Source: Candidatus Eiseniibacteriota bacterium (lineage in GTDB: Bacteria > Patescibacteriota > Microgenomatia > Levybacterales > UBA12049). From it: a stretch of 64,000 nt of DNA. The number at the start of each line of letters is the position of its first letter. The first letter of the stretch is position 1. The stretch lies in the NCBI GenBank assembly GCA_035631115.1, contig DASQJJ010000006.1, positions 11,551 through 75,550 of the forward strand. The letters run 5' to 3'. The notes beneath the pieces are model-generated. The model made no database searches. It had not been told where the DNA came from and saw only the letters and a program-made list of their open reading frames with translations. Below are positions 16,442 to 36,362 of this stretch, in pieces. Both the position numbers and the translations under genes were made by a program.

Positions 16442-16659
16442 ATCTTCTTTTTATTGTGAAGCAAAAAAAGAAAAATTGCCAGAAGTAAGCATATACCACC
16501 ATAGTAGGTAAATCTTTCCGCAGTAAAAAATACCCAGGAAGCAAAAAGCGGCATAGAAATAACTATACATCCTAACCCAGCTGCTACTACATAATAAGGA
16601 TTTCTCTTCCAAAGAAGGAAAGCGAGAAAAATAACAAAGATAATATCCTGAATTTTCAT
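16438..16659 (-). CDS. small two-TM membrane protein (DUF2304-like partner of polyprenol-phosphate GT2)
   Basis: 73 aa, two hydrophobic helices; immediately downstream of and 4-bp overlapping a GtrB-like GT2, the usual context of DUF2304. Confidence 0.35.
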   Translation of the reverse strand: MKIQDIIFVIFLAFLLWKRNPYYVVAAGLGCIVISMPLFASWVFFTAERFTYYGGICLLLAIFLFLLHNKKKI

Positions 16660-19690: not shown

Positions 19691-20725
19691 TTAGAAACCT
19701 CTTACAGTATATACCTGTTTTAGGGTCTTGGAATATTCCTTTACTCTTCCTCGTCCTTTTACATTTTGAATATATATGTCTCTTACTAATTTTAAAACAA
19801 ATTTCGGAGTGCAATATGCTGCAATAAGAGTTGCCCAATAACGCATAGACCATGTATATGAAGGATTAAGCTCTCTAAGTCTTTTAGCGTACTTAAGAAG
19901 ATTGCTATTGTTTGAGTTGTATTTAATTATTGCTAAAAAATTAACATTTATTGCAACCTGCCTATTCAGTGTTTTTCTATAACATTTTTCTCCTGCCACT
20001 TTTCGGATAACTTCATATACTTTTTCCCATGATAACTTACCATTTACAACAAAATGTGCTGGGTGTTTGTCTTGATGAGACCAGGAAGCAACAATAGAAT
20101 GAGAGTACAAGAAAAAGCCTCCTTGTGCCTCAAGACTTCTAAAACATATTTCAAACCATGGAATAAATTCTGAATCGATTATGGAAATTCTTTTGGGATA
20201 TATATTTTTAAAAACGATTCCTGTTATAAAGTGCAGATCAATTTTATCTATATAATCAACCGCTTCCTCAGGACTTGCATGGGCCTTAAATGCAAGGTCT
20301 TTCGTAATAAATTTGTTTCTTACGTAGTCAAATATATCTTTCTTGTCAAAGGTTTGATAGACATAATTAATTCGAATAAGTCCATAATTATACTTTTTAA
20401 TAAGGTCGTATGTCTTCTGTAGAACATCATCATACAAAAGATAATCATCATCACCGTGAAGAAATACATATTCTCCTCTTACATATTCCAAAACTTTTCC
20501 AATATTTTTGACAGCTCCAAGATTTTTCTTATTACGGTAATAACGAATTCTCTTATCCTTAAGGGACATGATGCGTTTTTGCGTTTCGTCTGTTGACCCA
20601 TCGTCACAGACAATAACTTCAAAATCCTTGAATGACTGCGCAAGGATCCTTTTTACTGCAAACTCTACATCTTCTGCTCTATTGTAGGTTGCGATGGGTA
20701 TTGAAAAAAATGGTCTTTTATTCAT
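19691..20725 (-). CDS. glycosyltransferase family 2 (GT-A)
   Basis: FSIPIATYNRAEDVEFAVKRILAQSFKDFEVIVCDDGSTDET. Confidence 0.75.
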   Translation of the reverse strand: MNKRPFFSIPIATYNRAEDVEFAVKRILAQSFKDFEVIVCDDGSTDETQKRIMSLKDKRIRYYRNKKNLGAVKNIGKVLEYVRGEYVFLHGDDDYLLYDDVLQKTYDLIKKYNYGLIRINYVYQTFDKKDIFDYVRNKFITKDLAFKAHASPEEAVDYIDKIDLHFITGIVFKNIYPKRISIIDSEFIPWFEICFRSLEAQGGFFLYSHSIVASWSHQDKHPAHFVVNGKLSWEKVYEVIRKVAGEKCYRKTLNRQVAINVNFLAIIKYNSNNSNLLKYAKRLRELNPSYTWSMRYWATLIAAYCTPKFVLKLVRDIYIQNVKGRGRVKEYSKTLKQVYTVRGF

Positions 20726-21821
20726 GTAATTTTTCTATCATTCTCAATGCCGTAACAAATCTTTGCCTGTCATTTTCTATACCTTTTGCATTATAGTACC
20801 CAGATACCGACCTTGTCGCAACTTTTACAAGCATAATCCGAAGAAAGTAAAACCAAAAGAGATATGAGGATTGTAATACACTGCTATCCATACCCAAACC
20901 ATTACAAAAGCTTTGAAAATACTTTTGCTGCTTTTTCTCAAAAAGAAATGTATTAACAAAAGCAACTTCCCATAATAGATCCCCTATTATTGTATCTTCC
21001 CAATCAAGAATTGCCTTTATTTTTGTCTTATGGAAAATTACATTTCTCGTAGCAAGATCGTTGTGAATAAGTACCATTGGTCTTTCATTAAGATTCATTG
21101 AATTTTCCGAAAAGATTCTTTCTATGATTTGCTTTGATTTTTTTGTAATTACTTTTAACGAATAGGTTTTGCTAATATGCTTTGATAAGTTTGTATAAAA
21201 AAATTCTTCCCAATTAGATGAGATTCCTGAAAATTCTCCTTTTTTTAAAAGTGCTGTCATACTAAGCAGCCCAACTCCCTTCAATGGAATCGAATGAATT
21301 TTTTTAAGTACTCTTCCTAAATTTGTATATACGTCATTTAACGCAGAGTATCTTTTATCTTCTAGCGTATCTCCTTCTATAAATTCCATAATCATAAAGT
21401 CAAACGGATAGTATTTTCGTGAAACATCAACTAAAAATATTTTCACTGATGGCATATGAAGCTGTTTCAAGGCATTCTGTATTTTTTCTTCTGTAAAAAA
21501 TGTAAAATCTGTATAAAGACTTTGCAAAGCACTCACACGTAACACATATGTATGTTTTTTTGTGACCACCTTATACAAAACGTGGTATGTACTTTTTGTA
21601 GAAATTAAAGAATACTGCATAACAGTTTCATTACATGAGTCACGGAAAATAGTATTAATATATAGTGGAATACTCGCAAAGATTTTTTCTTTCTCTTTTA
21701 TCAACTCTTGCTCCAAAAAAAGAATGTCTGCCTTGGGATAAAATACTTTCTTACGAATAGAAGAAAAGTGTTTTAAAGAATTCTCGGAGAAATTAAAACT
21801 TTTTGTAGTCAAAGTATTCAT
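20718..21821 (-). CDS. APH/choline-kinase-fold phosphotransferase (putative sugar or small-molecule kinase)
   Basis: 367 aa; beta3 Lys (VLYKV...YVLRV), hinge FMIMEFIEGDTLE, catalytic loop LIHNDLATRNVIF, and ILDWEDTIIGDLLWEVA (the D-W-E region). Confidence 0.6.
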   Translation of the reverse strand: MNTLTTKSFNFSENSLKHFSSIRKKVFYPKADILFLEQELIKEKEKIFASIPLYINTIFRDSCNETVMQYSLISTKSTYHVLYKVVTKKHTYVLRVSALQSLYTDFTFFTEEKIQNALKQLHMPSVKIFLVDVSRKYYPFDFMIMEFIEGDTLEDKRYSALNDVYTNLGRVLKKIHSIPLKGVGLLSMTALLKKGEFSGISSNWEEFFYTNLSKHISKTYSLKVITKKSKQIIERIFSENSMNLNERPMVLIHNDLATRNVIFHKTKIKAILDWEDTIIGDLLWEVAFVNTFLFEKKQQKYFQSFCNGLGMDSSVLQSSYLFWFYFLRIMLVKVATRSVSGYYNAKGIENDRQRFVTALRMIEKLHE

Positions 21822-22710
21822 TCATGTATGTTGTCAGTGATTTTATCTCATCATGCTCTTTTTTTGACAACTCTTTTATTTTTTCTATGTTGTATGCAAC
21901 CGTTGGGTATTGAATTGTTCCCCATGGATATTGATTGTCTAATTTTTTACCATTCCAGGAAGGATACAAAAGATTTTCTTCAAAGGGTATTCCTAATGTT
22001 GTAGAAAGGGTTGTAAAAAACTTTTTAGGGTTTGCGATAAGGTCCTCAAATTTTACAGTAATCACATTATTAGGAAAAAGAGTTGCATAATTAATCGCAG
22101 ATAGCTGAGTGACATTCCACGTATGTATATACCGTTGCAAAGATAATGGAGCAGGTCTATGCTTTGTTTCTGCATACGCAGAGTATGGATTTCTTACAAT
22201 GTGAATTATTTTTGCATTTGGAAAATCTGCAATAATTTTCTCTGCATCCAGAATTTGTACAGGATTATATCCAACATATATTTCCTCTTTTCCGCTACCA
22301 TTATAATTTTTCCATGCCAAAAATGTTGATTTGTAAAATGCCTCTATAGCGTTTGCCCTGGTAATATTTTTTCCTAGAAGCTTTACGAAGATTTTCTTTC
22401 TTTCTTTGTCATTTAAAGAAATTTGCACTTCTTTAAATTTACTCATGTGTGGTGCTTTTGTCCTAACTTTTACTTCTTCATCCCAAATATCTTCATACAT
22501 TTGCTCCGGTGTTTCCCCTAACTGAAATTGAGACCATCTATATTTATGGGGAACAAAAGAAGATAAGTAGTCACATATATTTTTTGTCCCTACTTGTGAT
22601 TCAAAAGGGTATACAAAAAGTTTGGAATGTCCATCAAGATGTCTCTGTAGTGTATTTCCACCATTCTCATACATAGCGGAAATCATAAAAAGTTTGAAAG
22701 ATTTTGCCAT
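21793..22710 (-). CDS. sulfotransferase-like protein
   Basis: 305 aa; N-terminal FMISAMYENGGNTLQRHLDGH resembles the PAPS 5-prime phosphate-binding loop of Sulfotransfer_3; KIIHIVRNPYSAYAETK resembles the 3-prime phosphate-binding RNPrD..S motif. Confidence 0.45.
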   Translation of the reverse strand: MAKSFKLFMISAMYENGGNTLQRHLDGHSKLFVYPFESQVGTKNICDYLSSFVPHKYRWSQFQLGETPEQMYEDIWDEEVKVRTKAPHMSKFKEVQISLNDKERKKIFVKLLGKNITRANAIEAFYKSTFLAWKNYNGSGKEEIYVGYNPVQILDAEKIIADFPNAKIIHIVRNPYSAYAETKHRPAPLSLQRYIHTWNVTQLSAINYATLFPNNVITVKFEDLIANPKKFFTTLSTTLGIPFEENLLYPSWNGKKLDNQYPWGTIQYPTVAYNIEKIKELSKKEHDEIKSLTTYMNEYFDYKKF

Positions 22711-22714
22711 ATTT

Positions 22715-23713
22715 TTATTTTATAGAGAGCTTATCATAATGTATTTCTTCCTGCCAAGCAACAGTTAATTCCAAACCTTCTTTAAGAGAATATTCTGGTC
22801 TCCATCCCAAAATTCTTTTAATTTTTGCATTGTTTCCAAACCAATCTATAATATCCCAATTTCTATTTTTCATCGTAGAAAATTGTGGATTTTCAGAAAT
22901 TTCAAACATTTTCTTTACCATAAAGGCAAGTGTTTTTATTTTTGTTTTCTTACCCGTTGCAACATTAAATACCTCACCATACATTCTTTTTTGCATTTTT
23001 GCCGCACTTATCACAAAAGCGGAAACAACATCATCTATGTAGATAAAGTCACGAGATATCTTAGGGTCAACAAAATTTGGCAACGTCTTATGTATTGCCT
23101 TGGAAACCAAAACAGGCATTAGCCTATCAGGCTCTTCCCAAGGTCCATATGCCGAATACAGCCTCAGATGCACCACAGGAAGGTGCTCTACTTTTCCATA
23201 GTACTTGAGCAAATAATAATTCCCAACCTTAGAAACAGCGTAATGGCTATTTGGGATAAGCTCTCCTGTTTCTTTTGGACCCTTTGCATTGAGGCCATAT
23301 TCAGACTGGGACCCCGCATGGATATATGCTTTAAATGGTATCTTTTTTAACTCCTCGAGAATATTTACTGTAGAGAGCGCATTTGTCTTATATATTTCCT
23401 TATAGTCACTTTGCTTTGCATATGCACCGTATGCTGCTAAGTTAAAAACAGTAAGCGGTTTTACTTTCTTAAATATTTTTTCTATGTCTTTTGTATTTGT
23501 AATATCAGAATCAATAATATTTTTTGTAGGTATTTTTGCAAGGCGAAATCTCCAATTCTTTTTTTTATTTCTTGAAACTCCAAAAACATCTTTTCTATAT
23601 GTAAGAAGCGTCTTTAGAAGGTTAACTCCAATAAATCCTCCACTTCCCAGGATAAGAATTGGTCCATGGAGTTTTTTTATGTGGGCACGTAGCGATGCGC
23701 GGCTTTGTCTCAT
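22715..23713 (-). CDS. NAD(P)-dependent sugar epimerase/dehydratase/reductase (extended SDR)
   Basis: ILILGSGGFIGVNLL Rossmann motif; catalytic YAVSKVGNYYL (YxxxK). Confidence 0.75.
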   Translation of the reverse strand: MRQSRASLRAHIKKLHGPILILGSGGFIGVNLLKTLLTYRKDVFGVSRNKKKNWRFRLAKIPTKNIIDSDITNTKDIEKIFKKVKPLTVFNLAAYGAYAKQSDYKEIYKTNALSTVNILEELKKIPFKAYIHAGSQSEYGLNAKGPKETGELIPNSHYAVSKVGNYYLLKYYGKVEHLPVVHLRLYSAYGPWEEPDRLMPVLVSKAIHKTLPNFVDPKISRDFIYIDDVVSAFVISAAKMQKRMYGEVFNVATGKKTKIKTLAFMVKKMFEISENPQFSTMKNRNWDIIDWFGNNAKIKRILGWRPEYSLKEGLELTVAWQEEIHYDKLSIK

Positions 23714-24216
23714 CTAATTAAATTAACATACCAAGGCTTGTTTTCTTTTAGTATTTTTTTAACAACCTGAGGAATCTCATCTATTGTTTTGGGCCACAAA
23801 GGAGTAATGTTGGAAAAAATCTTCATCACTTCTTTATCTTCTTCTACCCAGTGAGTAATGCCATCTTCTTTATAGTTTCTTTCTCTACCCGAACCAATCA
23901 ACCTAACAGGCGCAGATTCGTAGTTGATGTAATTTCTTATTGTTTCAAAGGGTCTATACAAAAGAAATGTTGTTGCTGTATACACAAGGGGTATTTTTCC
24001 CTCTTGTGCCAATCCTACAGCTATTCCTATCATTGCCTGCTCCGATGCACCTACATTAATAAATCTATTTGGAAAATCACGTCTCACATCATCCCACATG
24101 CGATAACCAAAATCACCAACAATAACCCAAATGTCTTTATTTTTTTTCATATGCTTATATACTTCATGGGCAAATGCAGCCCGCATCAATCTTTTATAAA
24201 TTGGTATTATTTTCAT
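23710..24216 (-). CDS. transketolase C-terminal section (pyrimidine-binding domain only, short)
   Basis: 168 aa; ...WVIVGDFGYRMWDD...INVGASEQAMIGIAVGLAQEGKIPLVYTATTFLLYRPFE... matches the Transket_pyr domain; lacks the usual C-terminal TKC domain. Confidence 0.65.
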   Translation of the reverse strand: MKIIPIYKRLMRAAFAHEVYKHMKKNKDIWVIVGDFGYRMWDDVRRDFPNRFINVGASEQAMIGIAVGLAQEGKIPLVYTATTFLLYRPFETIRNYINYESAPVRLIGSGRERNYKEDGITHWVEEDKEVMKIFSNITPLWPKTIDEIPQVVKKILKENKPWYVNLIR

Positions 24217-24983
24217 ATACGTAACATCTTGAGTGCTTTTTCGTAATCATTTTCATTCATTGCATAATAATGTGCATCCTGTCCTTTAAGAAAAGGTAGC
24301 TGGTCACTTGTTGTATGAGCAAATACAAGCATAGACTTTGATGATTTTACTTGTAATGCTCTCATAATTTCCTTCATATCATGGCCTTGTACTTCAATGG
24401 ATTTTATTCCAAATGCTTTTAGTCTTTGATAGAGTTTTTTTGTTTCTATTGCGCTAAATGCACCCCATCCATTTGCATTGACAATAATTTTTAGATTAGG
24501 AATTTCTAAGTCAACAATTATTCTTAATGCCTCCCAAATACTTCCCTCTGCACACTCACCGTCTGAGATAGCGCAGTATATTGTTCTTTTTTTATTAGCA
24601 AGTGCTATACCAATTGCAATAGGTAAGCCTTGACCAAGACTACCTGATGACACGTGAATATCTATTTCTGGATTTCTATCTGGATGAATATGAAGTTCTT
24701 GTATACTGTCTTTGTCTTTTATTTTTTTATACTTTTCTAGAATTGTGTATAGAGCAATTCCAGCATGACCATTGGACAAAATAAATTTGTCATTTCTTTT
24801 TTTTATCTTATAGATGCAATCAATAATATCGACAACACTCAAACATGATCCAATGTGTGACAAATTTTGAGCATAGCTTATTTCAAGAATTCTTTTCCTT
24901 GTTTCTTTCTGCTCTTTTGTAAGAAGACTAAGATTAAATCTTTTCATTGACTCATGAGGACAGGTACATGCAATTATACACAA
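24213..24983 (-). CDS. transketolase N-terminal section (ThDP-binding)
   Basis: SNGHAGIALYTILEKY...HPDRNPEIDIHVSSGSLGQGLPIAIGIALANK...CAISDGECAEGSIWEAL...NANGWGAF, ThDP-binding fold; probable true start at MKRFNLSLL (~24947). Confidence 0.75.
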   Translation of the reverse strand: MCIIACTCPHESMKRFNLSLLTKEQKETRKRILEISYAQNLSHIGSCLSVVDIIDCIYKIKKRNDKFILSNGHAGIALYTILEKYKKIKDKDSIQELHIHPDRNPEIDIHVSSGSLGQGLPIAIGIALANKKRTIYCAISDGECAEGSIWEALRIIVDLEIPNLKIIVNANGWGAFSAIETKKLYQRLKAFGIKSIEVQGHDMKEIMRALQVKSSKSMLVFAHTTSDQLPFLKGQDAHYYAMNENDYEKALKMLRI

Positions 24984-25059: not shown

Positions 25060-25767
25060 ATGACAATAACCTACTCTATTATTCTTCCTATTTATCACCA
25101 ATCAAACCAAATAGAGACACTTGTCTCGTCCTATGGAAATGGTCTTAAAAGACTTAAAGATTCATTTGAAATTATTCTTGTCATTAATGGTGCAGATACA
25201 GAGTCATACGATATTGCCAAAAAACTTACACAAAAAAATTCCTTTTTAAAAGTTGTCTATTTGAAAGATGCCGGCTGGGGAAATTCAATTATTGAAGGAA
25301 TAAAGACTGCACAGGGTAAATTTATTTGTTATACAAATTCAGCCAGAACAAGAATTTCTGATTTAATTACTATTCTTACCTACTCTAAAAACAATCCATC
25401 GGTTGTTATTAAAGCAACAAGAATACTTCACCTCAATCTTTTACGAAAGCTCGGATCCACCCTGTACAACATTGAATGCCGATTGCTTCTCCATACTCCT
25501 GTATGGGATGTTAATGGTACTCCAAAAGTAATGCCATCTCATGTTGCGAAAAAGATAGGCCTTACATCCAAAGGAGATTTGATTGACGCAGAGCTTATCG
25601 CAAAATGTGTATGGAATAATATTCCTATACTCGAGGTTCCTATTCTTTTTCCACCGAGATTTGGAGGAAATAGTACAACGCGGGTATTTTCTGCATTAAA
25701 AATGTATGCAGGCGTTTTGCAAATTAAAGATATGCTAAAAAGACAGACTTCTTTACGAAAAAAGTAA
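25060..25767 (+). CDS. GT2-family glycosyltransferase (short DPM/GtrB-like form)
   Basis: 235 aa; YSIILPIYHQSNQIETLVSSY...EIILVINGADTES...WDVNGTPKVM; only plus-strand gene within the first 31 kb; overlaps the convergent 900-aa gene by 44 bp. Confidence 0.55.
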   Translation: MTITYSIILPIYHQSNQIETLVSSYGNGLKRLKDSFEIILVINGADTESYDIAKKLTQKNSFLKVVYLKDAGWGNSIIEGIKTAQGKFICYTNSARTRISDLITILTYSKNNPSVVIKATRILHLNLLRKLGSTLYNIECRLLLHTPVWDVNGTPKVMPSHVAKKIGLTSKGDLIDAELIAKCVWNNIPILEVPILFPPRFGGNSTTRVFSALKMYAGVLQIKDMLKRQTSLRKK

Positions 25768-28426
25768 CTCCCAACCATAGTAAAAATCCACCCAAGGAAA
25801 ATATTGTTACAAAAAATCCAAGCAGAAATGTCTTTGAAAAAAATGAAAAAACATAGGTGTGTTGTCCCGGCCTTGTCTTAACTTCTAAAAATCTATTGTT
25901 TTCCAAGTGAGCTTTTTTCCCATCAATAGTAACACTCCACCCGGGGTAATAACTTTCCAAAAGTGAAAGAATCGCAGGCTGATCACTCCCTTCTCTAATT
26001 GTTATTGTATTTACTCCAAAAGAGGCTATTGTTTTTTTTATTACCTCTCCTTTATTTGTAATAAGTTGTGAGAATGGGCGCGCATCATGCACTTTGAATA
26101 TTATTGTGTCCTCATTTACATACGCCTTAGTAGAATCCCACGGAAGACTTGTGACAATATTGTGCGGAGAAATTACGTATCCTGGCAATATATCGTGATA
26201 TGTAGATGGTGGAGGATAAGAAACATGAGTATAACTGCTTACCAAACTATTCTTAAGCAGCAATCCATAATTTGTATTGAGAAGGAGTGTATTATACTGA
26301 TATGCCAAGTCATAGGGTACAAGATGAATATTATTTACAACTAGCACGAGAGATTGATTAGCATTATCCTTTTGTATCCATTTAAAAACATCCGAGTAGA
26401 GAGGGTAATTCAATGTGTCAATTTTTTGATCTGTAACCAACTGGGGCTTTATTAAAATAGTCTCAAAGAAAATGATGGCTACCACAAGATTTAATACGAG
26501 AACAACAAGTATCAATATTTTTCTTTTACTTAGAAAGTCACGACAGAATAGTCCAAAGAAAAGAAGAAGAATCACAGAAAGATAAGCAAAGATTCTACTT
26601 GGGACTCGATAGTACTGCAAAAAACTAACTGCACTAACTAACCAATGAAAAGGATTCCATTTCCACGCAGGCATGGAAATAGAAATAAAGAGCAAGAAGA
26701 GAATGGGTAGCAAAATATACTTTCTGCTCAATACGATTTTTCTTTTAAGGAATACCCACACAAAACCTAAAAGGGTAAATGGACCAATAAACGAAATTTT
26801 CTCCAAATCTCCCCATGCTGTAGATATATATTGTTTCAAATTAACAGCGGCAAATGGAGCATCAAACGGAATAAAAATATACCTAAGCATTCCAACGATA
26901 TTCATGCTTCCAGTAAAAGGATCTCTGCTTTTCTCAAGATAGTTTGTCAATTCAAGATAGGGAATAATTTTTACTGATGCAAAAAGAAGAAAAAACAAAA
27001 CAGAAATTCCCAGATAGACTGATGCCCTTTTATCTTTAAAAAGAAAAAAGATAAGGATTACCCCCAATCCATACAGAGTATACGTTGCTGTGTATGTTTC
27101 TCCAGAAAACAAGAATAGTGCGATTTCTAATCCCGCGACTCCTGACCAAAATAGATTTTTTTTATCTATTACTTTTTGCAATGAAAAAATCACAAATGGC
27201 AATAATGGATACGATAGTGTTTTTTCAATTTGCCCAGTATCTAATTTTGCTGCTAGATAAGAACTCGATGCATATGTCAGCGCAATAAACAAAGATAAAT
27301 ATGAAGAGTTAAGATACCTTTTCGTAAGTATATACATAGATTCACAGGCAAAAAATATAACAAGAAGGTACATAATTTTTAATGCAGTATCGTAGGGAAA
27401 TACAAGAAGAGGAATAGCAACCAACGGGTTATATACTCCATAGAGAGGATCTGCAACAGTAGGTATTCCCTGAACAACATATGGGTTCCATAAGGGAAAG
27501 GCATGATGTTGTAAGAGAGAGTTTTTAAAATAAAGATGAGGAACATCATTTCCATTCAAGTCATTCGCCCTTACGACATGCGTTGTTAGGAGAATGGGGC
27601 TTAGAATGATAATACTAAAAAGGAAAAATAATACGTGTAAACCAAATGCGCGTACATATTTATTTTTTATCTCGAAAAATATGGGTATTTTTTCATCCTC
27701 TTTGGTTATGGAGATTCTTTTTTTGGAACTTTTTCTTCGTGAATACACTATTAGCGCGATTGTCCTAACAATTTTTTGTATTGTATCTTGTATTGTTGTA
27801 TCTAGTTTTTGACCATTTCTTTTATTGAGCACGTAAAGAAAGTAAACAAACAAAGGAATAAGATAGATACTCGACAATACGAGCGAATCTGGATTAGAAA
27901 AAAGCATGCGCGTTCTCTTAAAAAATAAGAATAAAAAGTCTTTTGGAGAATATAAGAATTGCTTGGAGTATACATATTTACTTGTAAAGAAATCTCCCAC
28001 ATTCAGAGTATTCGGAGAAGCATTTGGTATTGTTGTAACAAACTCATATTGTCTTCCCTTTGAATTTGTAATTGAAGGAAATCCAAATACAAGAAAACCC
28101 TTTTCATTTACCTGATTTACCTCTGTTTGGGTAGAGTAAAACGAATGTGAATTATTTTTTTCTCTTAGTGCAAATGTAATCAGACCGCGGCCAGTACTAT
28201 TTGGCTTTATCTCCCCTACAACTCTTATAGCAATAATACCTAAGTTATTTTCCTCTGCAATAAATGATCCAGTTGTTCTATTGGCCTTATCATTTTGTTG
28301 AGATAAAGAATGCTTATACACAATTATGGTAAAAGGACTATAGGGATTAATAAAAATAGCGGCAAAAAACCAAAAAATGATGTAAATAAATATTGCGAGA
28401 AATTGTAATCTATATTTTGTGATCAT
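25724..28426 (-). CDS. YfhO-like polytopic membrane glycosyltransferase candidate with extra N-terminal TM + beta-rich domain
   Basis: 900 aa. The N-terminal ~230 aa (…ENNLGIIAIRV…FGFPSITNSKGRQYEFVT…) is paralogous to the standalone 28442..29554 protein. This is followed by a multi-TM core and a C-terminal SYYPGWSVTIDGKKAHLENNRFLEVKTRPGQHTYVFSF plus TM anchor, the YfhO hallmark. Confidence 0.55.
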   Translation of the reverse strand: MITKYRLQFLAIFIYIIFWFFAAIFINPYSPFTIIVYKHSLSQQNDKANRTTGSFIAEENNLGIIAIRVVGEIKPNSTGRGLITFALREKNNSHSFYSTQTEVNQVNEKGFLVFGFPSITNSKGRQYEFVTTIPNASPNTLNVGDFFTSKYVYSKQFLYSPKDFLFLFFKRTRMLFSNPDSLVLSSIYLIPLFVYFLYVLNKRNGQKLDTTIQDTIQKIVRTIALIVYSRRKSSKKRISITKEDEKIPIFFEIKNKYVRAFGLHVLFFLFSIIILSPILLTTHVVRANDLNGNDVPHLYFKNSLLQHHAFPLWNPYVVQGIPTVADPLYGVYNPLVAIPLLVFPYDTALKIMYLLVIFFACESMYILTKRYLNSSYLSLFIALTYASSSYLAAKLDTGQIEKTLSYPLLPFVIFSLQKVIDKKNLFWSGVAGLEIALFLFSGETYTATYTLYGLGVILIFFLFKDKRASVYLGISVLFFLLFASVKIIPYLELTNYLEKSRDPFTGSMNIVGMLRYIFIPFDAPFAAVNLKQYISTAWGDLEKISFIGPFTLLGFVWVFLKRKIVLSRKYILLPILFLLFISISMPAWKWNPFHWLVSAVSFLQYYRVPSRIFAYLSVILLLFFGLFCRDFLSKRKILILVVLVLNLVVAIIFFETILIKPQLVTDQKIDTLNYPLYSDVFKWIQKDNANQSLVLVVNNIHLVPYDLAYQYNTLLLNTNYGLLLKNSLVSSYTHVSYPPPSTYHDILPGYVISPHNIVTSLPWDSTKAYVNEDTIIFKVHDARPFSQLITNKGEVIKKTIASFGVNTITIREGSDQPAILSLLESYYPGWSVTIDGKKAHLENNRFLEVKTRPGQHTYVFSFFSKTFLLGFFVTIFSLGGFLLWLGVTFFVKKSVFLAYL

Positions 28427-28441
28427 ATTTCTCTGGAGATT

Positions 28442-29554
28442 TTATTTCCTATTTCGCCAGATAATTTGTGCTACAGCAATGACAAGGAAAAAGTATGCCC
28501 ACATTGAGGTTTTATTTTCTTGAGCAATATTACCCAGTACAATGTCTAATTCAGAGAGTAGTAGGAAAAGAAGGGCAAATAATAAAGAAATTTTTAATGA
28601 AATCTTATCTTTTACAATTGCAATTATCCAAAACCCAAGAAGTCCTAGCGCAATTCCGTAGTAGATTGATTGGAGAAGAAAAATGTCTGCAGTAATAAGT
28701 GTAATTGTAAAAGATCCCAAGAAACTTCTTTTCAAGTAATTTTGAAGAAGAAAATTTGTGTTTTTTGAACCAACACCAACACCTTTAAGGGTTTTGCCGG
28801 ACAATTGTGAAAGAAAAAAAGCAATATGACGCGATGTATAAAGTAACATAAAAAGTATGTAGTACACCAATGGAAGTATAAAAATTGACGTCGATAGTAA
28901 AACTTGTGGATACATAAAAACAGATACAATCTTTTTATATGGCATGACCATATACAACTTTTTCCCGGATATTTCTTTTTTTGAAAAGATATATCTCGTA
29001 ACAAAAGAATCATGCCCATTAATAATCGCTATAGCATTTGTCTTATCTCCATTAAGAGAGAGTAACTCGAATTCGTATATTTTCCCTTTAGAGCTACCTA
29101 TTTTAGGAAATCCAAACACAATAGATTCATCTTCTCTCAGGGAGCCTACATTATAAATATTCTCGTAATACCAATTTTGTGTGCCCACTTCTTTAATATG
29201 AAATTTTAAGTACAATGGCTCATCAGGCTGTGCAACCAGACTTCGACTAACATGAATTGTTACAATACCAAGATTATCTTCTTGTGACACAAATTCTCCA
29301 ATTACCTTTGTCCCTTTAAGAAGGATGTTATCTTTCGGTAAATGAGTATACTCCTTATTGCTGTGTGGATATATTAAGGTTGTAAATCCTCCCTGCGGAT
29401 TTGCAAATAATGCTCCTGCAAACCATATAAAAAATAATAAAACAGGCACCACAAGCCACAAAAAGATTGTTAATAACAATGATCTATGAGTGATATTATT
29501 TTTTCTTGGCATATTTTTTCGACTGAAATAACATATATGCAATAATTCCCCCAA
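28442..29554 (-). CDS. membrane protein paralogous to the N-terminal module of the 900-aa YfhO-like protein (unknown function)
   Basis: 370 aa; N-terminal TM, domain ...QEDNLGIVTIHVSRS...FGFPKIGSSKGKIYEFELLSL..., then 4-5 C-terminal TM helices; probable true start MPRKNNITH (~29512). Confidence 0.5.
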   Translation of the reverse strand: MGELLHICYFSRKNMPRKNNITHRSLLLTIFLWLVVPVLLFFIWFAGALFANPQGGFTTLIYPHSNKEYTHLPKDNILLKGTKVIGEFVSQEDNLGIVTIHVSRSLVAQPDEPLYLKFHIKEVGTQNWYYENIYNVGSLREDESIVFGFPKIGSSKGKIYEFELLSLNGDKTNAIAIINGHDSFVTRYIFSKKEISGKKLYMVMPYKKIVSVFMYPQVLLSTSIFILPLVYYILFMLLYTSRHIAFFLSQLSGKTLKGVGVGSKNTNFLLQNYLKRSFLGSFTITLITADIFLLQSIYYGIALGLLGFWIIAIVKDKISLKISLLFALLFLLLSELDIVLGNIAQENKTSMWAYFFLVIAVAQIIWRNRK

Positions 29555-31922
29555 CTATTAATAAGGTAGTAATGATTCCAACATAAAATCCTTCCTGTGG
29601 AAGAAAATAAACAGCAACTTTTATGTCTATTGACCCGTCTCTATTTTTCTTATAAAAAGTTGTGTTGTAGTCCCTTTGAATATCTTTTGGATCAATTTTC
29701 CACATATTGTTATATTTTGGGGAAAATATATGTGTTTTTTCAGCTAATCGCGGCTTGAAAAGATAAGATAATTCACTCAGTTGAAACAATCCATCTGCAG
29801 AACTGCATTCAGAAACTCCTTGCATTACTTTAATAATAGAGTTTTTGCATTGAGTGGGCTCCTCATATCTTTCTAGGTATAATTTCCACCCATCATGATA
29901 TGAGTCTAAGAATTGTAATTCATCCACAGACGTAAGGTGCATGTAAACAATATATTTTATGGGACTTATTTTTTGAAAATACCCTTGAGAAAAATGAAAA
30001 AGTATATTTGGCTTTTTTACCGAGTATAATTCGTAGTTACCCGACGAGCTGACAAAAAGCCTTTTGTCTGTAATTTCATCGAGAAAAGTCTTGTCTTGAT
30101 TTTTTAATGAATTTCCACCAGAAAAAAGGTAAGACTTTTTAACTTCCTGGGGAATATTTTTTGTTACCAATACAACATCTATATTATATTTGTAGTAAAA
30201 ATTTCGAAGGCCTTCATAGTCTCTGTTGGCAATAAGATTCCACATCTTCCCAGATTCTTCATGAGAAAAAGACAAGTCTCCGGAAAAATCATTAATTCCT
30301 GTAAAAAATTTTGTTGGTGATGTTCCGGCAAAAACGTTATTTGTTGTGTCATCCTTAACAACTGCATACCCGGCAATATTGAGCGGGAAATTAAGAATAT
30401 TAGCTGTTGGGTCTGTACTTTTCTTAACTTGCATGAGAAATTGTGAATATTCTTGAGGAAAAGAAATAGTCCTGTATATATTGCTTGTTGTCCAAAGAGG
30501 ACTATTTATGGTTCTTTTTAGAGGAATTGCATTAATGACTATTATCAGAAGAGTACACAAAATAATTAAAAAGCTGTATTTCGAAAATTTTCTCAATACA
30601 ATAAAAAGAGAAAATGCAATCAAAAGAGAATATATAAGAATGAATCCTAAAGCAAATTTGTCAAATGCATTTCGAAACATCATAAAGCCGGGAATGTAAC
30701 CCATAAGAAGAAATACTTCCTTTAAAGGCCCTATATTAACCGTATAAAAAAATAATGATAGGAGAAAACCTATTAGTATAAGAAAATACATCTTTTTCTC
30801 TGATGTATTAAGTGCCTTTTTCCAAAGAAAAATTCCTGCAAATACAATACTTACGTAGATTGTATTAAGAAAAAACATTTTGTCGTAAAACGCAATAAAA
30901 ATAGTACGCAAATCCCAATCATGGGTAAATGTTAAGTCTCTATGGAATAAATTAAGAAATGGAAAAGTAATATTACCTGTTGAGGTTTGTACAACTGTAT
31001 CTCTAAATGTGCTTGCCCTATCACTAATTAAGCTTCCAATACTATTCCCTTTTATGAGAAATTGCATAATAAATGGAATAGTCCAATAGGACTGAGATAG
31101 AAAAATACATCCAAAAAAAATAATACTTCGTATAATAAATGTTTTTATTAGTTGTCTATTGAAAAATAGGAGCCCAAAGGGAAGGGTGAGAAAAAGAGGA
31201 AGTAACAACCCCGCAATCCATGGAATACTATAAAATCCTAGAGAAAGAAATATACAAACAACAACTGTTACTACTACATAGGAAAATGTGCCCGTTTTTA
31301 CGTATTTGATAAAATTCCAGGCAATAAATGGAAATAATCCTACAAGCCATGCCGACATAAGAAAAACAGAAAGTTGATTTATAATAAGAATTGGAGAAAG
31401 GATATAGAAAAATGTACTAGTATATTGCTCCACATATGTGGACCTTGGCAATAACTCTTTTATTAATTTTTGGAAATATATAAAGCCTAAAATAATTGGC
31501 AAAGAAAACGACAGGTAATCAATGACAGCCCTAGATTTTATAACTACAAATAGCCCTGACCAAACAAGAGCAAATGGAAAGGAAAAATGATTTGGCGTAT
31601 AGCTTGCAACTGAAGAAAGATTTATCCAAGAAAAAAAAGACATCGCTTTAAGATACTCCCAAGGATATGCATAAATTAACCTTGTATCATCTCCTCCAAC
31701 GAATAATTTTCCTTGAAAAAGATAATACGGTAATGCGAGAAGAATACATATTGTTATACTATTAACAAGAATATTTTTGTATTTTCCAAAAAAGGTAAAA
31801 GTAGTATTCATTCTGAGAACTTTCATATTGTAGCAAAAAAAGGAATATGATACAGTAGTGATCTCACAGACTTTATGAAACATGTTTTGGTAACCGGTGG
31901 AGCAGGATTTATTGGAAGTCAC
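29496..31922 (-). CDS. large polytopic membrane protein, probable GT-C/YfhO-like glycosyltransferase
   Basis: 808 aa; N-terminal loop LFVGGDDTRLIYAYPWEYL; more than 12 TM helices; C-terminal soluble region LDSYHDGWKLYLERYEEP... and terminal TM anchor; true start probably MKVLRMNTT (ATG 31826) or MNTTFTFF (31810) because the annotated N-terminus overlaps the divergent epimerase gene. Confidence 0.5.
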   Translation of the reverse strand: MTSNKSCSTGYQNMFHKVCEITTVSYSFFCYNMKVLRMNTTFTFFGKYKNILVNSITICILLALPYYLFQGKLFVGGDDTRLIYAYPWEYLKAMSFFSWINLSSVASYTPNHFSFPFALVWSGLFVVIKSRAVIDYLSFSLPIILGFIYFQKLIKELLPRSTYVEQYTSTFFYILSPILIINQLSVFLMSAWLVGLFPFIAWNFIKYVKTGTFSYVVVTVVVCIFLSLGFYSIPWIAGLLLPLFLTLPFGLLFFNRQLIKTFIIRSIIFFGCIFLSQSYWTIPFIMQFLIKGNSIGSLISDRASTFRDTVVQTSTGNITFPFLNLFHRDLTFTHDWDLRTIFIAFYDKMFFLNTIYVSIVFAGIFLWKKALNTSEKKMYFLILIGFLLSLFFYTVNIGPLKEVFLLMGYIPGFMMFRNAFDKFALGFILIYSLLIAFSLFIVLRKFSKYSFLIILCTLLIIVINAIPLKRTINSPLWTTSNIYRTISFPQEYSQFLMQVKKSTDPTANILNFPLNIAGYAVVKDDTTNNVFAGTSPTKFFTGINDFSGDLSFSHEESGKMWNLIANRDYEGLRNFYYKYNIDVVLVTKNIPQEVKKSYLFSGGNSLKNQDKTFLDEITDKRLFVSSSGNYELYSVKKPNILFHFSQGYFQKISPIKYIVYMHLTSVDELQFLDSYHDGWKLYLERYEEPTQCKNSIIKVMQGVSECSSADGLFQLSELSYLFKPRLAEKTHIFSPKYNNMWKIDPKDIQRDYNTTFYKKNRDGSIDIKVAVYFLPQEGFYVGIITTLLIVGGIIAYMLFQSKKYAKKK
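31827..31874. promoter_or_regulatory. short divergent intergenic region, expected to carry promoters for the minus-strand 31826..96 operon and the plus-strand 31875..34062 genes
   Basis: 48-bp AT-rich gap between divergent starts (assuming the 808-aa gene starts at 31826); contains tatgat -10-like hexamer; no experimental support. Confidence 0.3.
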
Positions 31923-34062: not shown

Positions 34063-34699
34063 TCTCTTTTACAGCAAATATGTGGTACGCATATTTTGGA
34101 AAAAAATATAATATTGGCTCGGAAATAAAAGCAATAATTGCCCATAAAACCCAAGGCTTGTATTGAATCATTGCATGAATACCACGTATATACTTTAGAC
34201 CCCTAAGCCCATATACCCTATATCCTAATGCCTTCAAATCATGTATGTGCCACCCTGACTTATGCTTTTGATGCGGATTTCCAAACAATATCTCCTGAGG
34301 ATAAAATCCGTTGGGAGTCATAATGATAACTCTTTTTTTGGCAATTTTCTCCATTTGCCCTATCATTTTCTGTGCCTCAGTCTTTGTTAGGTGCTCTATA
34401 ACATCTAGAGCAATAACATCGTCAAAACTTTTTTTAGGAAAAAAATTTTGCAAATTTCTAATATCTCCAACTATATATTTATTATGATTTTTTGCCTTCT
34501 TACTTACTTGTATGCAGTCTCTAAAAACATCAATCCCTGTTGACGTAAATGTACCTCTAATTTTCCCCAAAATTGAATTGTATCCACATCCTACATCAAG
34601 CACAGAAGAAGAACCAGCAATGGAGTTTTTGACCGCTTGCTTATAGAACTCATTATTGAAAAATTCAATTACGTTATTTATCTTCATTAGACAGCTCAT
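34055..34699 (-). CDS. class I SAM-dependent methyltransferase
   Basis: VLDVGCGYNSILGKI (motif I) and DVIALDVIEHL (motif II/III). Confidence 0.7.
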   Translation of the reverse strand: MSCLMKINNVIEFFNNEFYKQAVKNSIAGSSSVLDVGCGYNSILGKIRGTFTSTGIDVFRDCIQVSKKAKNHNKYIVGDIRNLQNFFPKKSFDDVIALDVIEHLTKTEAQKMIGQMEKIAKKRVIIMTPNGFYPQEILFGNPHQKHKSGWHIHDLKALGYRVYGLRGLKYIRGIHAMIQYKPWVLWAIIAFISEPILYFFPKYAYHIFAVKEIS

Positions 34700-36362
34700 C
34701 TCGCGTCTGCTCTGTTATATTCTGTAATTTCATTTTTTTAGAATCGTAATAGAATGCATGAATATCATCCCAGCTAAAATGGTAGGTGCTTTTTGCCTCC
34801 TTAAGATGGTCGAAAGATGTGTAGTATCCATATGATACATCATTAACCTTTGTATACCCTTCACTCCCAAGAGTCCATAAATATCCATTAATTAATAATT
34901 GCTTGGGCATTCTGCCCGTATTGTAATACAAGACAGGAACAGAATAACCAAAGCCATGCTGAAATGGAACGGTATTCGTATCCTTCCACCATTTTCTATC
35001 GCTAGTAAAGTAAAACACATTTACATTTTCTTTAAGCGTGGGTAATTCATTAATCAACTGCGCTATAAACCCTTTTCTTTCTGAGGCTATGACAACTTGT
35101 GTTTGTATGTCTTGCTTAATTTCATTGACATGAAGAAACATAAGGTAGACAAATACCAAAGCAAAAGCGAGTTTTAGCGTAAAAAACTTTTTGTTTATTA
35201 AAAAAATGTTCTTTGCAATATATCCGACAAGGATTCCTCCTGCAGCCAAAGGAATGTAATAATATCGAGGCTCCATGTATGCAAAGGTTTTTCCAATAAT
35301 AATATAGGGAATGATGGATAAGAAGAATAAGGAAATAATAAAAAGAACAATATGTCTTGATTTTTTATCAAATTTTATTTCTATTCCAATATATATGAGA
35401 AGTAAAAAAGATCCAATAGTAGAAAGCATGTCCAAAACAACTGTCTCTCCAATAAGGTCAAAATGATCTGTTATGTATGGATAGTAAACTTTCATAAAAT
35501 CATATGCAATAGAAAGTGCGCTGTATTGAGGAATAAACATAAGAGAAAGACTTGTCATCGGATACATAATAAAACGAGCTATCATTGACTGTACAAAAAA
35601 CAATTTCCCCTGATTAATACTTGCATACACAGGGGAATTAAAGAGGTCTCTAGGCGTTAGGGCTGGAATAATAATTTCAACAATACGATACAAAACGAAA
35701 AGGATTATAAAAATTATAAAAGGAGAGAAAATTTTTATATATTTTTTAGTTTCAATCTTTTTTCTAAAAATAAATGGCATAATTGGAAGAAAAGCAAAAA
35801 GAAATATTCCACTTTCTTTGAAATAAAGAGATAAAAGTGCAAAGAAGAGAGATATAAAGGCAAACCTTACTTTATTATTCTCAATAAATAGTAAGAAAAG
35901 ATATATCGATAAAAAAATACAAACTGATGCAGGCTGTAACCCAAAAGACGCTGCAAACCATGTAATTGACTGGTGTGAAACACTATTGAGGGCAAAAAAA
36001 ACTGTTCCTACAAATGCTGCCAATGTATTCTTAAGGAGTTTTTTAATAATCAAATAAACAAGCAGTGAGTTAACAATGTGTAAGAAAATTCCATAGTATG
36101 CATAGGGAGCAGGATTAAAAGAAAACTTTACTGTAAATAGAACCCCAATAAGCCTTGTGAGGGGTCTTGCATCTGCAAACAATATCTGTAAAGGAGACAA
36201 TCCATGAGTAATTGCACCATATCCTAATGCCAGTACTTGTCCAGAACCCAACCATTCATCCTGTTGAAAAAAAGTCTTAGGTAAATCCCAAAAAGTATAT
36301 AAAATTGCTATGCAAATTAAAAGGAAAAGTATCGCGCTTAAAGAAAAAAAATATTTCTTCAT
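34674..36362 (-). CDS. GT-C fold membrane glycosyltransferase (PMT_2/ArnT-like)
   Basis: 562 aa; first loop FFQQDEWLGSGQ...DARPLTRLIGVLFTVKF...YYGIFLHIVNSLLVYLI; about 13 TM helices; C-terminal periplasmic domain. Confidence 0.55.
   Translation of the reverse strand: MKKYFFSLSAILFLLICIAILYTFWDLPKTFFQQDEWLGSGQVLALGYGAITHGLSPLQILFADARPLTRLIGVLFTVKFSFNPAPYAYYGIFLHIVNSLLVYLIIKKLLKNTLAAFVGTVFFALNSVSHQSITWFAASFGLQPASVCIFLSIYLFLLFIENNKVRFAFISLFFALLSLYFKESGIFLFAFLPIMPFIFRKKIETKKYIKIFSPFIIFIILFVLYRIVEIIIPALTPRDLFNSPVYASINQGKLFFVQSMIARFIMYPMTSLSLMFIPQYSALSIAYDFMKVYYPYITDHFDLIGETVVLDMLSTIGSFLLLIYIGIEIKFDKKSRHIVLFIISLFFLSIIPYIIIGKTFAYMEPRYYYIPLAAGGILVGYIAKNIFLINKKFFTLKLAFALVFVYLMFLHVNEIKQDIQTQVVIASERKGFIAQLINELPTLKENVNVFYFTSDRKWWKDTNTVPFQHGFGYSVPVLYYNTGRMPKQLLINGYLWTLGSEGYTKVNDVSYGYYTSFDHLKEAKSTYHFSWDDIHAFYYDSKKMKLQNITEQTRDELSNEDK

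What the first reader, a model, noticed from the sequence alone, without database searches (positions are those of the whole stretch)
25724..29554. Standalone 370-aa membrane protein is a paralog of the N-terminal module fused onto a 900-aa YfhO-like protein
Residues ~1-230 of the 900-aa protein (TM then ...ENNLGIIAIRV...FGFPSITNSKGRQYEFVT...) align with the 370-aa protein (...EDNLGIVTIHV...FGFPKIGSSKGKIYEFELL...), which lies directly downstream. Neither resembles a family I recognise. The module therefore occurs both fused to, and adjacent to, YfhO-like enzymes. It may be an accessory or specificity subunit (for example acceptor binding or chain-length control) for this class of membrane glycosyltransferase.
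Basis: seen in the sequence. Interest (0 to 1): 0.5.

Follow-up and report, generated by a model that had tools for sequence, protein, structure and literature searches.

The report
Sugar-binding-like partner of membrane glycosyltransferases
A previously unnamed membrane protein with a sugar-binding-like outer domain sits next to, or is fused onto, large membrane glycosyltransferases in tiny uncultured bacteria (Patescibacteria), so it is very probably a helper part of those enzymes.

Summary
Residues 5-200 of the 900-aa protein align with the neighbouring 356/370-aa protein (BLASTP E=9e-27, 28% identity).

All three genes lie on the minus strand as a tight operon: 771/808-aa protein, then 356-aa protein, then 900-aa protein.

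- **Module family.** It matches no Pfam or NCBIfam model, yet has about 1,000 clusters at 50% identity. Every named relative is from Patescibacteria.
- **The 808-aa protein.** It is also a distant YfhO relative (hhalign probability 99.6%).
- **Linkage.** The module gene directly follows an 808-type gene in 52 of 80 assessable loci. In a reciprocal test it followed 5 of 5.
- **Fusions.** The module is fused, in at least seven separate clades, to YfhO-like, 808-type, PMT_2 and AftD-like GT-C enzymes.

The best reading is a non-catalytic accessory subunit or domain of GT-C enzymes, probably presenting the acceptor glycan. The function itself is inferred, not tested. I class it as a new variant of a known kind, of moderate interest.

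The parts
29496..31811 (-). 808-type GT-C glycosyltransferase. The maximal ORF is 808 aa from GTG 31922; the likely start is ATG 31811, giving 771 aa. It is a distant YfhO/AftD-like superfamily member and the conserved upstream partner of the module gene.
   Evidence: ORF. The 771-aa database version is P0210. No Pfam or NCBIfam hit. hhalign against a YfhO alignment gives probability 99.6%, E=9e-25, with GGDDTR aligned to the invariant YfhO Asp.
28442..29512 (-). Standalone module protein, 356 aa (370-aa ORF if started at TTG 29554). Proposed accessory subunit.
   Evidence: P0001 is 356 aa at 100% identity. The ATG overlaps the 808-aa gene's stop codon by 17 nt. AlphaFold2 model has pLDDT 90.3 and pTM 0.84.
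29405..29479 (-). TM1 of the 356-aa protein (residues 12-36), preceded by a K/R-rich cytoplasmic N-terminus.
   Evidence: Helix 12-36 in the model. Orientation is inferred from the positive-inside rule.
28988..29380 (-). Extracytoplasmic jelly-roll β-sandwich of the 356-aa protein (residues 45-175), resembling a carbohydrate-binding module. Carries the conserved motifs NNLGI and FGFP.I..SKGK.Y.FE.
28802..28981 (-). Juxtamembrane helices and TM2 of the 356-aa protein (residues 178-237). This is the end of the region shared with the 900-aa protein.
   Evidence: Helices 178-207 and 209-237. The BLASTP alignment ends here.
28448..28759 (-). C-terminal 4-helix membrane bundle of the 356-aa protein (residues 252-355). 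It is absent from the 900-aa protein. Elsewhere it occurs alone (109 aa) beside an 808-type gene, or fused to the C-terminus of an AftD-like GT-C.
   Evidence: Helices 252-279, 285-302, 306-325 and 329-355. L102 109-aa protein matches HMM positions 240-335, E=3e-12. L072 1004-aa protein.
27815..28426 (-). N-terminal module of the 900-aa protein (residues 1-204): TM1 (2-25), β-sandwich (34-152), helices and TM2 (155-204). It is a paralogue of the 356-aa protein's N-part.
27662..27814 (-). K/R-rich, low-confidence cytoplasmic linker of the 900-aa protein (residues 205-255).
   Evidence: pLDDT 41-68 in this stretch. Unfused orthologues P0010-12 begin just after it.
25724..27661 (-). GT-C glycosyltransferase core of the 900-aa protein (residues 256-900), a distant YfhO relative. 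It carries an NDLNGND loop, an FPLWNPY motif, and a C-terminal β-domain followed by a last TM.
25060..25767 (+). Convergent 235-aa GT2 glycosyltransferase, conserved in synteny. It is a candidate polyprenyl-phosphate-sugar synthase that would supply the donor; this assignment is weak.
   Evidence: PF00535, 36.5 bits. Weak AglJ-like match, E=1e-7, far below the cut-off. The same gene is present in syntenic locus L002.

Best explanation
The 356-aa protein is a non-catalytic, membrane-embedded accessory subunit of the GT-C glycosyltransferase encoded just upstream (the 808-type enzyme). The first ~205 residues of the 900-aa protein are the same device built into a second GT-C enzyme.

Proposed mechanism:
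- The GT-C enzyme takes a sugar from a polyprenyl-phosphate-sugar donor on the outer face of the membrane.
- The module's membrane helices dock it onto the enzyme. These are TM1 and TM2, plus the C-terminal 4-helix bundle in the standalone form.
- Its outward-facing β-sandwich, which resembles a carbohydrate-binding module, holds or selects the acceptor glycan or cell-surface polymer next to the active site. This would set acceptor specificity or processivity.

Shown here: the paralogy, the predicted fold, the GT-C nature of both partners, the near-obligate gene adjacency and the repeated fusions.

Inferred: physical docking, topology, glycan binding and the effect on specificity.
For: **Paralogy.** BLASTP E=9e-27. 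The family has 1,039 cluster representatives at E<=1e-3, mostly standalone proteins of 310-370 aa.

**Gene linkage.**
- 52 of 80 assessable standalone module genes have a YfhO-superfamily (808-type) ORF immediately upstream on the same strand, with gaps from -89 to +19 nt.
- In this window the ATG overlaps the upstream stop codon by 17 nt.
- Reciprocal test: for six 808-type genes chosen only for sitting on long contigs, the next gene is a module-family member in 5 of 5 with DNA available. In the sixth, which has no DNA, the next gene is an unannotated 339-aa protein.

**Fusions in several unrelated clades.**
- To a YfhO-like core: P0006-9.
- To 808-type enzymes: P0313, P0103, P0110.
- To PMT_2 enzymes: L082, L087, L098.
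- To an AftD-like GT-C: L072.
- Each fusion clade is closest to standalone proteins rather than to other fusion clades.

**Partners.** Both are GT-C or YfhO-superfamily enzymes with the conserved first-loop Asp motifs.

**Precedent.** AftD and EmbC carry CBMs in cis for acceptor binding (PMC3044687; bioRxiv 10.1101/2019.12.22.885152). [quoted passage not shown]
Against: - No binding or interaction data exist, and a multimer prediction could not be run.
- 808-type and YfhO-like enzymes already carry their own outer β-domain.
- In the most distant 808-type locus (L102) the partner is only the 4-helix bundle, without the sandwich. The membrane part may therefore be the essential element.
- 19 of 80 standalone genes have a different gene immediately upstream.
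- Loci were collected with motif patterns derived from this family, so the sample is biased towards close relatives.
Confidence: 0.55

Rival explanations
1. Donor-side helper. The membrane part, especially the ~100-residue 4-helix bundle, handles the lipid-linked sugar donor. It would flip or channel polyprenyl-phosphate-sugar to the GT-C enzyme, as GtrA/GtcA or ArnE/F do in three-component systems. The sandwich would act as a lid or lipid-binding element.
For: - The 4-helix bundle alone (109 aa) is the partner in L102.
- The bundle is fused to the C-terminus of an AftD-like GT-C in L072.
- Its size and helix count match GtrA-type flippases, described as 3-4 TM proteins in PMC8035078.
- No GtrA-like small polytopic ORF exists in the whole 64-kb island, despite a dozen or more GT-C genes.
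- Seipin, a lipid-binding TM-sandwich-TM protein, is a structural match.
Against: - None of 122 family members hits GtrA, SMR or EamA models in Pfam, even at E<=0.1.
- The 900-aa type and several PMT_2 fusions keep only TM1-sandwich-TM2 and lack the bundle. The sandwich part therefore has a selectable role of its own.
- The best structural matches to the sandwich are CBMs and lectins, not lipid binders.
Confidence: 0.2
2. Chain-length regulator or co-polymerase. A Wzz/PCP-like protein (TM, periplasmic domain, TM) that would control polymer length for a polymerising GT-C enzyme.
For: The TM1, outer domain, TM2 topology is the same as in PCP proteins. The island also holds a Wzy_C-like protein at 10195-13296, a weak match.
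Against: - The outer domain is a ~130-residue β-sandwich, not the long α-helical PCP domain.
- Only 1 of 122 members touches the Wzz model, at E=0.044.
- The linkage is to YfhO, AftD and PMT_2-type transferases, not to Wzy.
Confidence: 0.05
3. Independent surface protein. A membrane-anchored glycan-binding or anchoring protein that merely shares operons with glycan genes and does not work with the GT-C enzyme.
For: The genes sit in very large glycan islands where many gene types are neighbours. 19 of 80 loci have another gene directly upstream.
Against: - Repeated, independent covalent fusions to four GT-C families, at both N- and C-termini.
- Start/stop overlaps with the GT-C gene.
- 5 of 5 in the reciprocal test.
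- Only two of the many GT-C genes in this window carry or adjoin the module, so the link is specific rather than a general feature of the island.
Confidence: 0.08

Closest known systems
Multi-component (three-component) transmembrane glycosylation systems: CsbB / GtcA / YfhO of Bacillus, Staphylococcus and Listeria
   Same: A polytopic GT-C enzyme of the YfhO superfamily acts on the outer face, with GT2 genes nearby that resemble polyprenyl-phosphate-sugar synthases (PMC8035078).
   Different: - The 808-aa and 900-aa proteins do not reach the Pfam YfhO model.
- No GtrA/GtcA flippase is recognisable in the window.
- A fourth element, the module with a CBM-like sandwich, is present. It has no counterpart in the described systems.
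Carbohydrate-binding modules in cis in mycobacterial GT-C arabinosyltransferases (AftD, EmbC)
   Different: - Here the sandwich sits between two membrane helices at the N-terminus, or on a separate protein, rather than in the C-terminal soluble region.
- There is no sequence similarity to those CBMs.
- Glycan binding is untested.
Ost3/Ost6 subunits of eukaryotic oligosaccharyltransferase, and BcsB of bacterial cellulose synthase (analogies only)
   Same: A non-catalytic subunit with an outward-facing substrate-handling domain and membrane helices that dock on the catalytic membrane enzyme. The BcsB carbohydrate-binding domain appears among the Foldseek matches. The comparison with Ost3/6 rests on my own knowledge.
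   Different: The folds are unrelated (thioredoxin in Ost3/6). BcsB partners a GT2 synthase. No homology is claimed.
CBM6 / CBM35 / CBM15 / CBM16 families of glycoside hydrolases
   Different: Identity is 6-12%, with no sequence-profile match. The domain is membrane-tethered at both ends, and its ligand site has not been examined.

Membership tests
YfhO family (Pfam PF09586), for the 900-aa core | Scores above the Pfam gathering threshold for PF09586 | tested here: not met
   hmmscan found no YfhO hit even at E<=1. The window's 822-aa protein scores 83.4 bits.
YfhO family (Pfam PF09586), for the 900-aa core | Detectable homology to true YfhO proteins, including the N-terminal PLWNPY region and the C-terminal YPGW β-domain | tested here: met
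   Two BLASTP HSPs of E=8e-7 against the window's PF09586 protein. Remote hits carry PF09586. A local HMM built from PF09586 proteins gives E=1e-60.
GT-C fold glycosyltransferases, for the 900-aa core | Polytopic GT-C membrane fold | tested here: met
GT-C fold glycosyltransferases, for the 900-aa core and the 808-aa protein | Transfer of a sugar from a polyprenyl-phosphate-linked donor | not testable with these tools
   Only conserved acidic first-loop motifs are seen: NDLNGND, and GGDDTR aligned to the invariant YfhO Asp.
YfhO superfamily, for the 808-aa protein | Profile-level homology to YfhO over most of the length | tested here: met
   hhalign probability 99.6%, E=9e-25, 622 aligned columns. 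However, there is no Pfam hit and no BLASTP similarity to the window's YfhO protein.
Carbohydrate-binding modules (CBM6/35/15-like), for the β-sandwich | β-jelly-roll fold | tested here: met
Carbohydrate-binding modules (CBM6/35/15-like), for the β-sandwich | Sequence membership of a CBM family | tested here: not met
   No CBM model in Pfam hits 122 members. No PDB sequence match.
Carbohydrate-binding modules (CBM6/35/15-like), for the β-sandwich | Binds a carbohydrate | not testable with these tools
   Needs glycan arrays or ITC on the expressed domain.
Wzz / polysaccharide co-polymerase (PF02706) | TM, long α-helical periplasmic domain, TM; match to the Wzz model | tested here: not met
   The topology is alike, but the outer domain is a β-sandwich. 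Only 1 of 122 members touches Wzz, at E=0.044.
GtrA / SMR-type lipid-linked sugar flippases, for the C-terminal 4-helix bundle | Match to GtrA (PF04138) or SMR models | tested here: not met
   Neither model is among the families listed for the 122 members at E<=0.1. Only size and helix number are alike.
GtrA / SMR-type lipid-linked sugar flippases, for the C-terminal 4-helix bundle | Flips polyprenyl-phosphate-sugar | not testable with these tools
   Needs a reconstituted flipping assay.

The most novel reading that the evidence does not exclude
The family is a two-part adaptor specific to Patescibacteria. Its 4-helix bundle would be the missing lipid-linked-sugar flippase or donor-channelling subunit, and its CBM-like sandwich would select the acceptor. 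One small protein would then couple donor delivery and acceptor choice for several GT-C families, giving a new component type in extracytoplasmic glycosylation.
Probability: 0.15. Interest if true: 0.75.

Novelty: new variant of a known kind. Interest (0 to 1): 0.55.

Why it matters
GT-C glycosyltransferases build and decorate cell-surface polymers in all domains of life. How bacterial GT-C enzymes recognise their acceptors is largely unknown. A review has speculated that a separate acceptor-binding protein might exist (PMC8035078).

This family is a concrete, widespread candidate. It has about 1,000 sequence clusters, is nearly always paired with one GT-C clade, and has been fused repeatedly to four GT-C families. 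It gives a testable handle on acceptor recognition.

It would also name a large block of 'hypothetical' genes in the oversized glycosylation islands of Patescibacteria. The surfaces of these organisms probably mediate their attachment to host cells.

Tried and rejected
**Homology searches that found nothing**
- Pfam and NCBIfam scans of the 900-, 370- and 808-aa proteins.
- Pfam on 122 module-family members and on 16 808-type members.
- PDB sequence searches with module, 808-type and YfhO profiles.
- The word-index homologue search for the small protein found only 5 close relatives. The exhaustive profile search was needed to see the family.

**Ideas tested and rejected**
- The module is not a copy of the YfhO or 808-type enzymes' own outer β-domain (hhalign probability <=5%).
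- A Wzz-like chain-length regulator is not favoured, because the fold differs.
- A GtrA-like flippase elsewhere in the window: no small polytopic ORF was found.

**Tool and data limits**
- The first attempt at a genome-contig scan with the 122-sequence alignment failed because no stretch was conserved enough. It was repeated with 7 sequences.
- The afdb50 fold library was unavailable.
- Cluster look-up gave no taxon names.
- Two literature searches, for YfhO in Patescibacteria and for a membrane-anchored accessory CBM with GT-C enzymes, found no description of this family.
Only pTM 0.75 and a low-confidence linker are known.

Full report
**What is at the coordinates.**

Three genes lie head to tail on the minus strand.
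- An 808-aa maximal ORF at 29496-31922. Its likely start is the ATG at 31811, giving 771 aa, as in database protein P0210.
- A 370-aa maximal ORF at 28442-29554. The database version P0001 starts at the ATG at 29512 and is 356 aa.
- A 900-aa ORF at 25724-28426, which is P0006.

The 356-aa gene's ATG overlaps the stop codon of the 808-aa gene by 17 nt. Only 15 nt separate its own stop from the ATG of the 900-aa gene. In transcription order the small gene is therefore downstream of the 808-aa gene and upstream of the 900-aa gene.

A 235-aa GT2 gene converges on the 3' end of the 900-aa gene.

**The observation.**

BLASTP of the 900-aa against the 370-aa protein gives E=9e-27, with 28% identity over 215 columns. 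Residues 5-200 align with 23-237.

None of the three proteins has a Pfam or NCBIfam match.

**What the large proteins are.**

The C-terminal ~650 residues of the 900-aa protein are distantly related to true YfhO proteins.
- Remote hits carry PF09586.
- The window's own PF09586 protein (58655-61123, 83 bits) gives two HSPs of E=8e-7. These cover the PLWNPY region and the C-terminal YPGW β-domain.
- Unfused orthologues of 616-652 aa (P0010-12) start exactly where the core starts.
- The AlphaFold2 model of the whole 900-aa protein has pLDDT 87.4 and pTM 0.75, with a low-confidence K/R-rich linker at residues 205-250.

The 808-aa protein shows no BLASTP similarity to either YfhO-type protein in the window. 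However, a 16-member alignment of its family aligns with a 31-member YfhO alignment at hhalign probability 99.6%, E=9e-25, over 622 columns. Its invariant GGDDTR motif falls on the invariant YfhO aspartate.

'YfhO-like' is therefore right at superfamily level for both proteins, but neither is a Pfam-level member.

**What the module is.**

A profile of the shared region was searched against 1.84 billion cluster representatives. It found 1,039 proteins at E<=1e-3 and 767 at E<=1e-10. Of the best 150, 139 are standalone proteins of about 200-435 aa, and 11 are longer fusions.

None of 122 members has a consistent Pfam hit, and the PDB holds no sequence relative. Genome contigs that carry the family and have a meaningful title are Patescibacteria: Levyibacteriota, Woesebacteria or 'Patescibacteria group'.

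The AlphaFold2 model of the 356-aa protein, built from a 122-sequence alignment, has pLDDT 90.3 and pTM 0.84. It shows:
- TM1 at residues 12-36;
- a β-sandwich at 45-175;
- short helices at 178-207;
- TM2 at 209-237;
- a short loop;
- four further membrane helices at 252-355.

K/R-rich stretches precede TM1 and follow TM2. By the positive-inside rule this places the sandwich outside the cell, on the same face as the GT-C active-site loop. This topology is an inference.

**Linkage to GT-C enzymes.**

I collected 19 genome loci and 75 metagenome loci carrying the family. I called ORFs in them and classified the ORFs with local HMMs.

Of the 80 standalone module genes that were not cut off at their 5' end:

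| Gene immediately upstream, same strand | Count |
|---|---|
| YfhO-superfamily (808-type) ORF | 52 |
| Another module gene | 3 |
| Some other ORF | 19 |
| None | 6 |

- For the 52, gaps range from -89 to +19 nt, and 46 overlap when maximal ORFs are used.
- Three of the 6 'none' cases had under 120 nt of upstream sequence available.
- The sample is biased towards relatives of the query, because the scans used motif patterns from this family.

I therefore ran the reverse test. Six 808-type genes were chosen only for lying on long contigs. The next gene is a module-family member in all 5 loci with DNA:
- three ordinary standalone proteins of 320-358 aa;
- one module protein fused to a C-terminal methyltransferase (565 aa);
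- one 109-aa protein that matches only the C-terminal 4-helix bundle (E=3e-12). This came from the most distant 808-type locus.

The sixth locus had no DNA, but the gene after the 808-type gene there is an unannotated 339-aa protein.

In the syntenic relative L002 the same three-gene order occurs, and locus L001 carries two separate 808-type/module pairs.

**Fusions.**

Besides the 900-aa clade, the module occurs fused as follows.
- The complete module protein is fused N-terminally to 808-type enzymes in P0313 (1,036 aa) and in P0103 and P0110 (1,335 and 1,352 aa). The last two also carry a C-terminal GDSL esterase. P0103 recurs in several independent assemblies.
- The module is fused to PMT_2-type GT-C enzymes above the Pfam threshold in L082, L087 and L098.
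- The 4-helix bundle alone is fused to the C-terminus of an AftD-like GT-C in L072.

BLAST clustering of module regions shows at least seven fusion clades. Each is closest to standalone proteins rather than to other fusion clades, so the fusions arose repeatedly.

The unfused gene order is enzyme first, then module. Most fusions have the module first, so they are not simple read-through artefacts.

Within this window only the 808-aa and 900-aa genes have the module. The 686-aa YfhO-superfamily gene, the true YfhO gene and the many PMT_2 genes do not. The link is therefore clade-specific and not a general property of the island.

**How it most likely works.**

Near-obligate adjacency, start/stop overlap and repeated fusion to four GT-C families are the classic signature of a physically associated subunit. 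I hold that general statement at about 0.85.

The specific mechanism I favour, at 0.55, is as follows. The membrane helices dock the protein on the GT-C enzyme, and the outward CBM-like sandwich captures the acceptor glycan beside the active site.

This parallels the cis CBMs of AftD and EmbC (PMC3044687; bioRxiv 10.1101/2019.12.22.885152). [quoted passage not shown]

The main rival, at 0.2, is a donor-side role for the 4-helix bundle.
- For it: the bundle is the minimal conserved partner (L102), it resembles GtrA-type flippases in size, and no GtrA-like gene exists in the 64-kb island.
- Against it: no sequence similarity to flippase families, and the sandwich part persists in fusions that lack the bundle.

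A Wzz-like regulator and an unrelated surface protein are both unlikely, for the reasons given under the rival explanations.

**Comparison with what is known, and novelty.**

The system fits the frame of multi-component transmembrane glycosylation systems: a GT2 donor synthase, a flippase and a GT-C enzyme. It adds a component not described there.

Two literature searches found no description of this family. I class it as a new variant of a known kind: an uncharacterised but large protein family filling a role known only in cis in mycobacterial enzymes, and by analogy in eukaryotic oligosaccharyltransferase.

Interest is moderate (0.55). The comparative evidence is strong and gives a testable handle on acceptor recognition by bacterial GT-C enzymes. 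The biochemical function is still inferred, and the organisms are uncultured.

Noticed in passing
window 1-64000: Almost the whole window is one glycan-synthesis island with more than a dozen GT-C-type membrane proteins.
- PMT_2-type: 8745-10190, 41594-42913, 48854-50494, 50476-52119, 52112-53788, 53785-55392 and 61054-62562 (the last a weak match).
- A true YfhO at 58655-61123.
- A GT87-like protein at 57384-58658.
- A Wzy_C-like 1,033-aa protein at 10195-13296.
- Many GT2 and GT4 genes.
- No tRNA or Rfam RNA.
   Followed up: partly
window 16656-19684: A 686-aa YfhO-superfamily protein (local HMM E=3e-33 to the 808-type profile) is followed directly by a 323-aa GT2. That GT2 resembles ArnC/PgfS-type polyprenyl-phosphate-sugar synthases over its full length (E=6e-50, below the curated cut-off). 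This is a classic CsbB/YfhO-like pair, and it has no module gene.
   Followed up: partly
window 20718-24983: Five genes sit just downstream of the three-gene operon and are conserved in synteny in L002:
- a split transketolase-like pair (24213-24983 and 23710-24216);
- an epimerase/dehydratase;
- a sulfotransferase (21793-22710);
- an APH/choline-kinase-like phosphotransferase (20718-21821).

Together they suggest an unusual modified, possibly sulfated or phosphorylated, sugar.
   Followed up: no
L102 5672-6001; L072 448-3462: The C-terminal 4-helix bundle of the module protein behaves as an independent unit. It is a 109-aa stand-alone gene after a distant 808-type gene in L102. In L072 it is fused to the C-terminus of an AftD-like GT-C (PF11847, 58.9 bits).
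   Followed up: partly
P0103, P0110; L001 16061-17047; L101 6776-7774: GDSL/SGNH esterase domains recur with this system. They form the C-terminal part of triple fusions (module + 808-type + GDSL). They also occur as separate genes beside 808-type/module pairs. This hints that acylation or de-acylation of the glycan is coupled to the transfer.
   Followed up: no
P0290, P0291, P0304, P0305, P0309, P0286: Some 808-type homologues are 1,040-1,267 aa long because of an insertion of roughly 250-480 residues in the C-terminal outer region. It lies at about profile position 600-670. The insertion is not a module copy, and its nature is unknown.
   Followed up: no
P0064 (1241 aa), P0074 (1307 aa); L019, L074, L091 (893-941 aa): Some proteins have two tandem module copies followed by about 700 unassigned residues. 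A separate clade has one N-terminal module and a polytopic C-terminal part of about 600 aa with no Pfam, YfhO or 808-type HMM match. These may be further GT-C-like partners.
   Followed up: partly
L103 5801-7498: A module protein is fused at its predicted cytoplasmic C-terminus to a class I methyltransferase (565 aa). Separate methyltransferase genes follow the pair in several other loci.
   Followed up: no
window (whole); P0001 and P0006 source names: NCBI names the source MAG 'Candidatus Eisenbacteria bacterium'. However, the GC content is about 35%. All relatives of these genes whose titles carry a real taxon name are Patescibacteria (Levyibacteriota, Woesebacteria). Several other relatives carry the title 'uncultured Gammaproteobacteria bacterium', which I take to be a placeholder. 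The taxon label on this MAG is probably wrong.
   Followed up: no
window 34674-36362 and 55472-57406: Two further large proteins (562 and 644 aa) have no family match. The 562-aa protein has no convincing Pfam or NCBIfam hit. The 644-aa protein has none in Pfam or NCBIfam. The 562-aa gene is conserved in synteny in L002 as a 542-aa gene.
   Followed up: no
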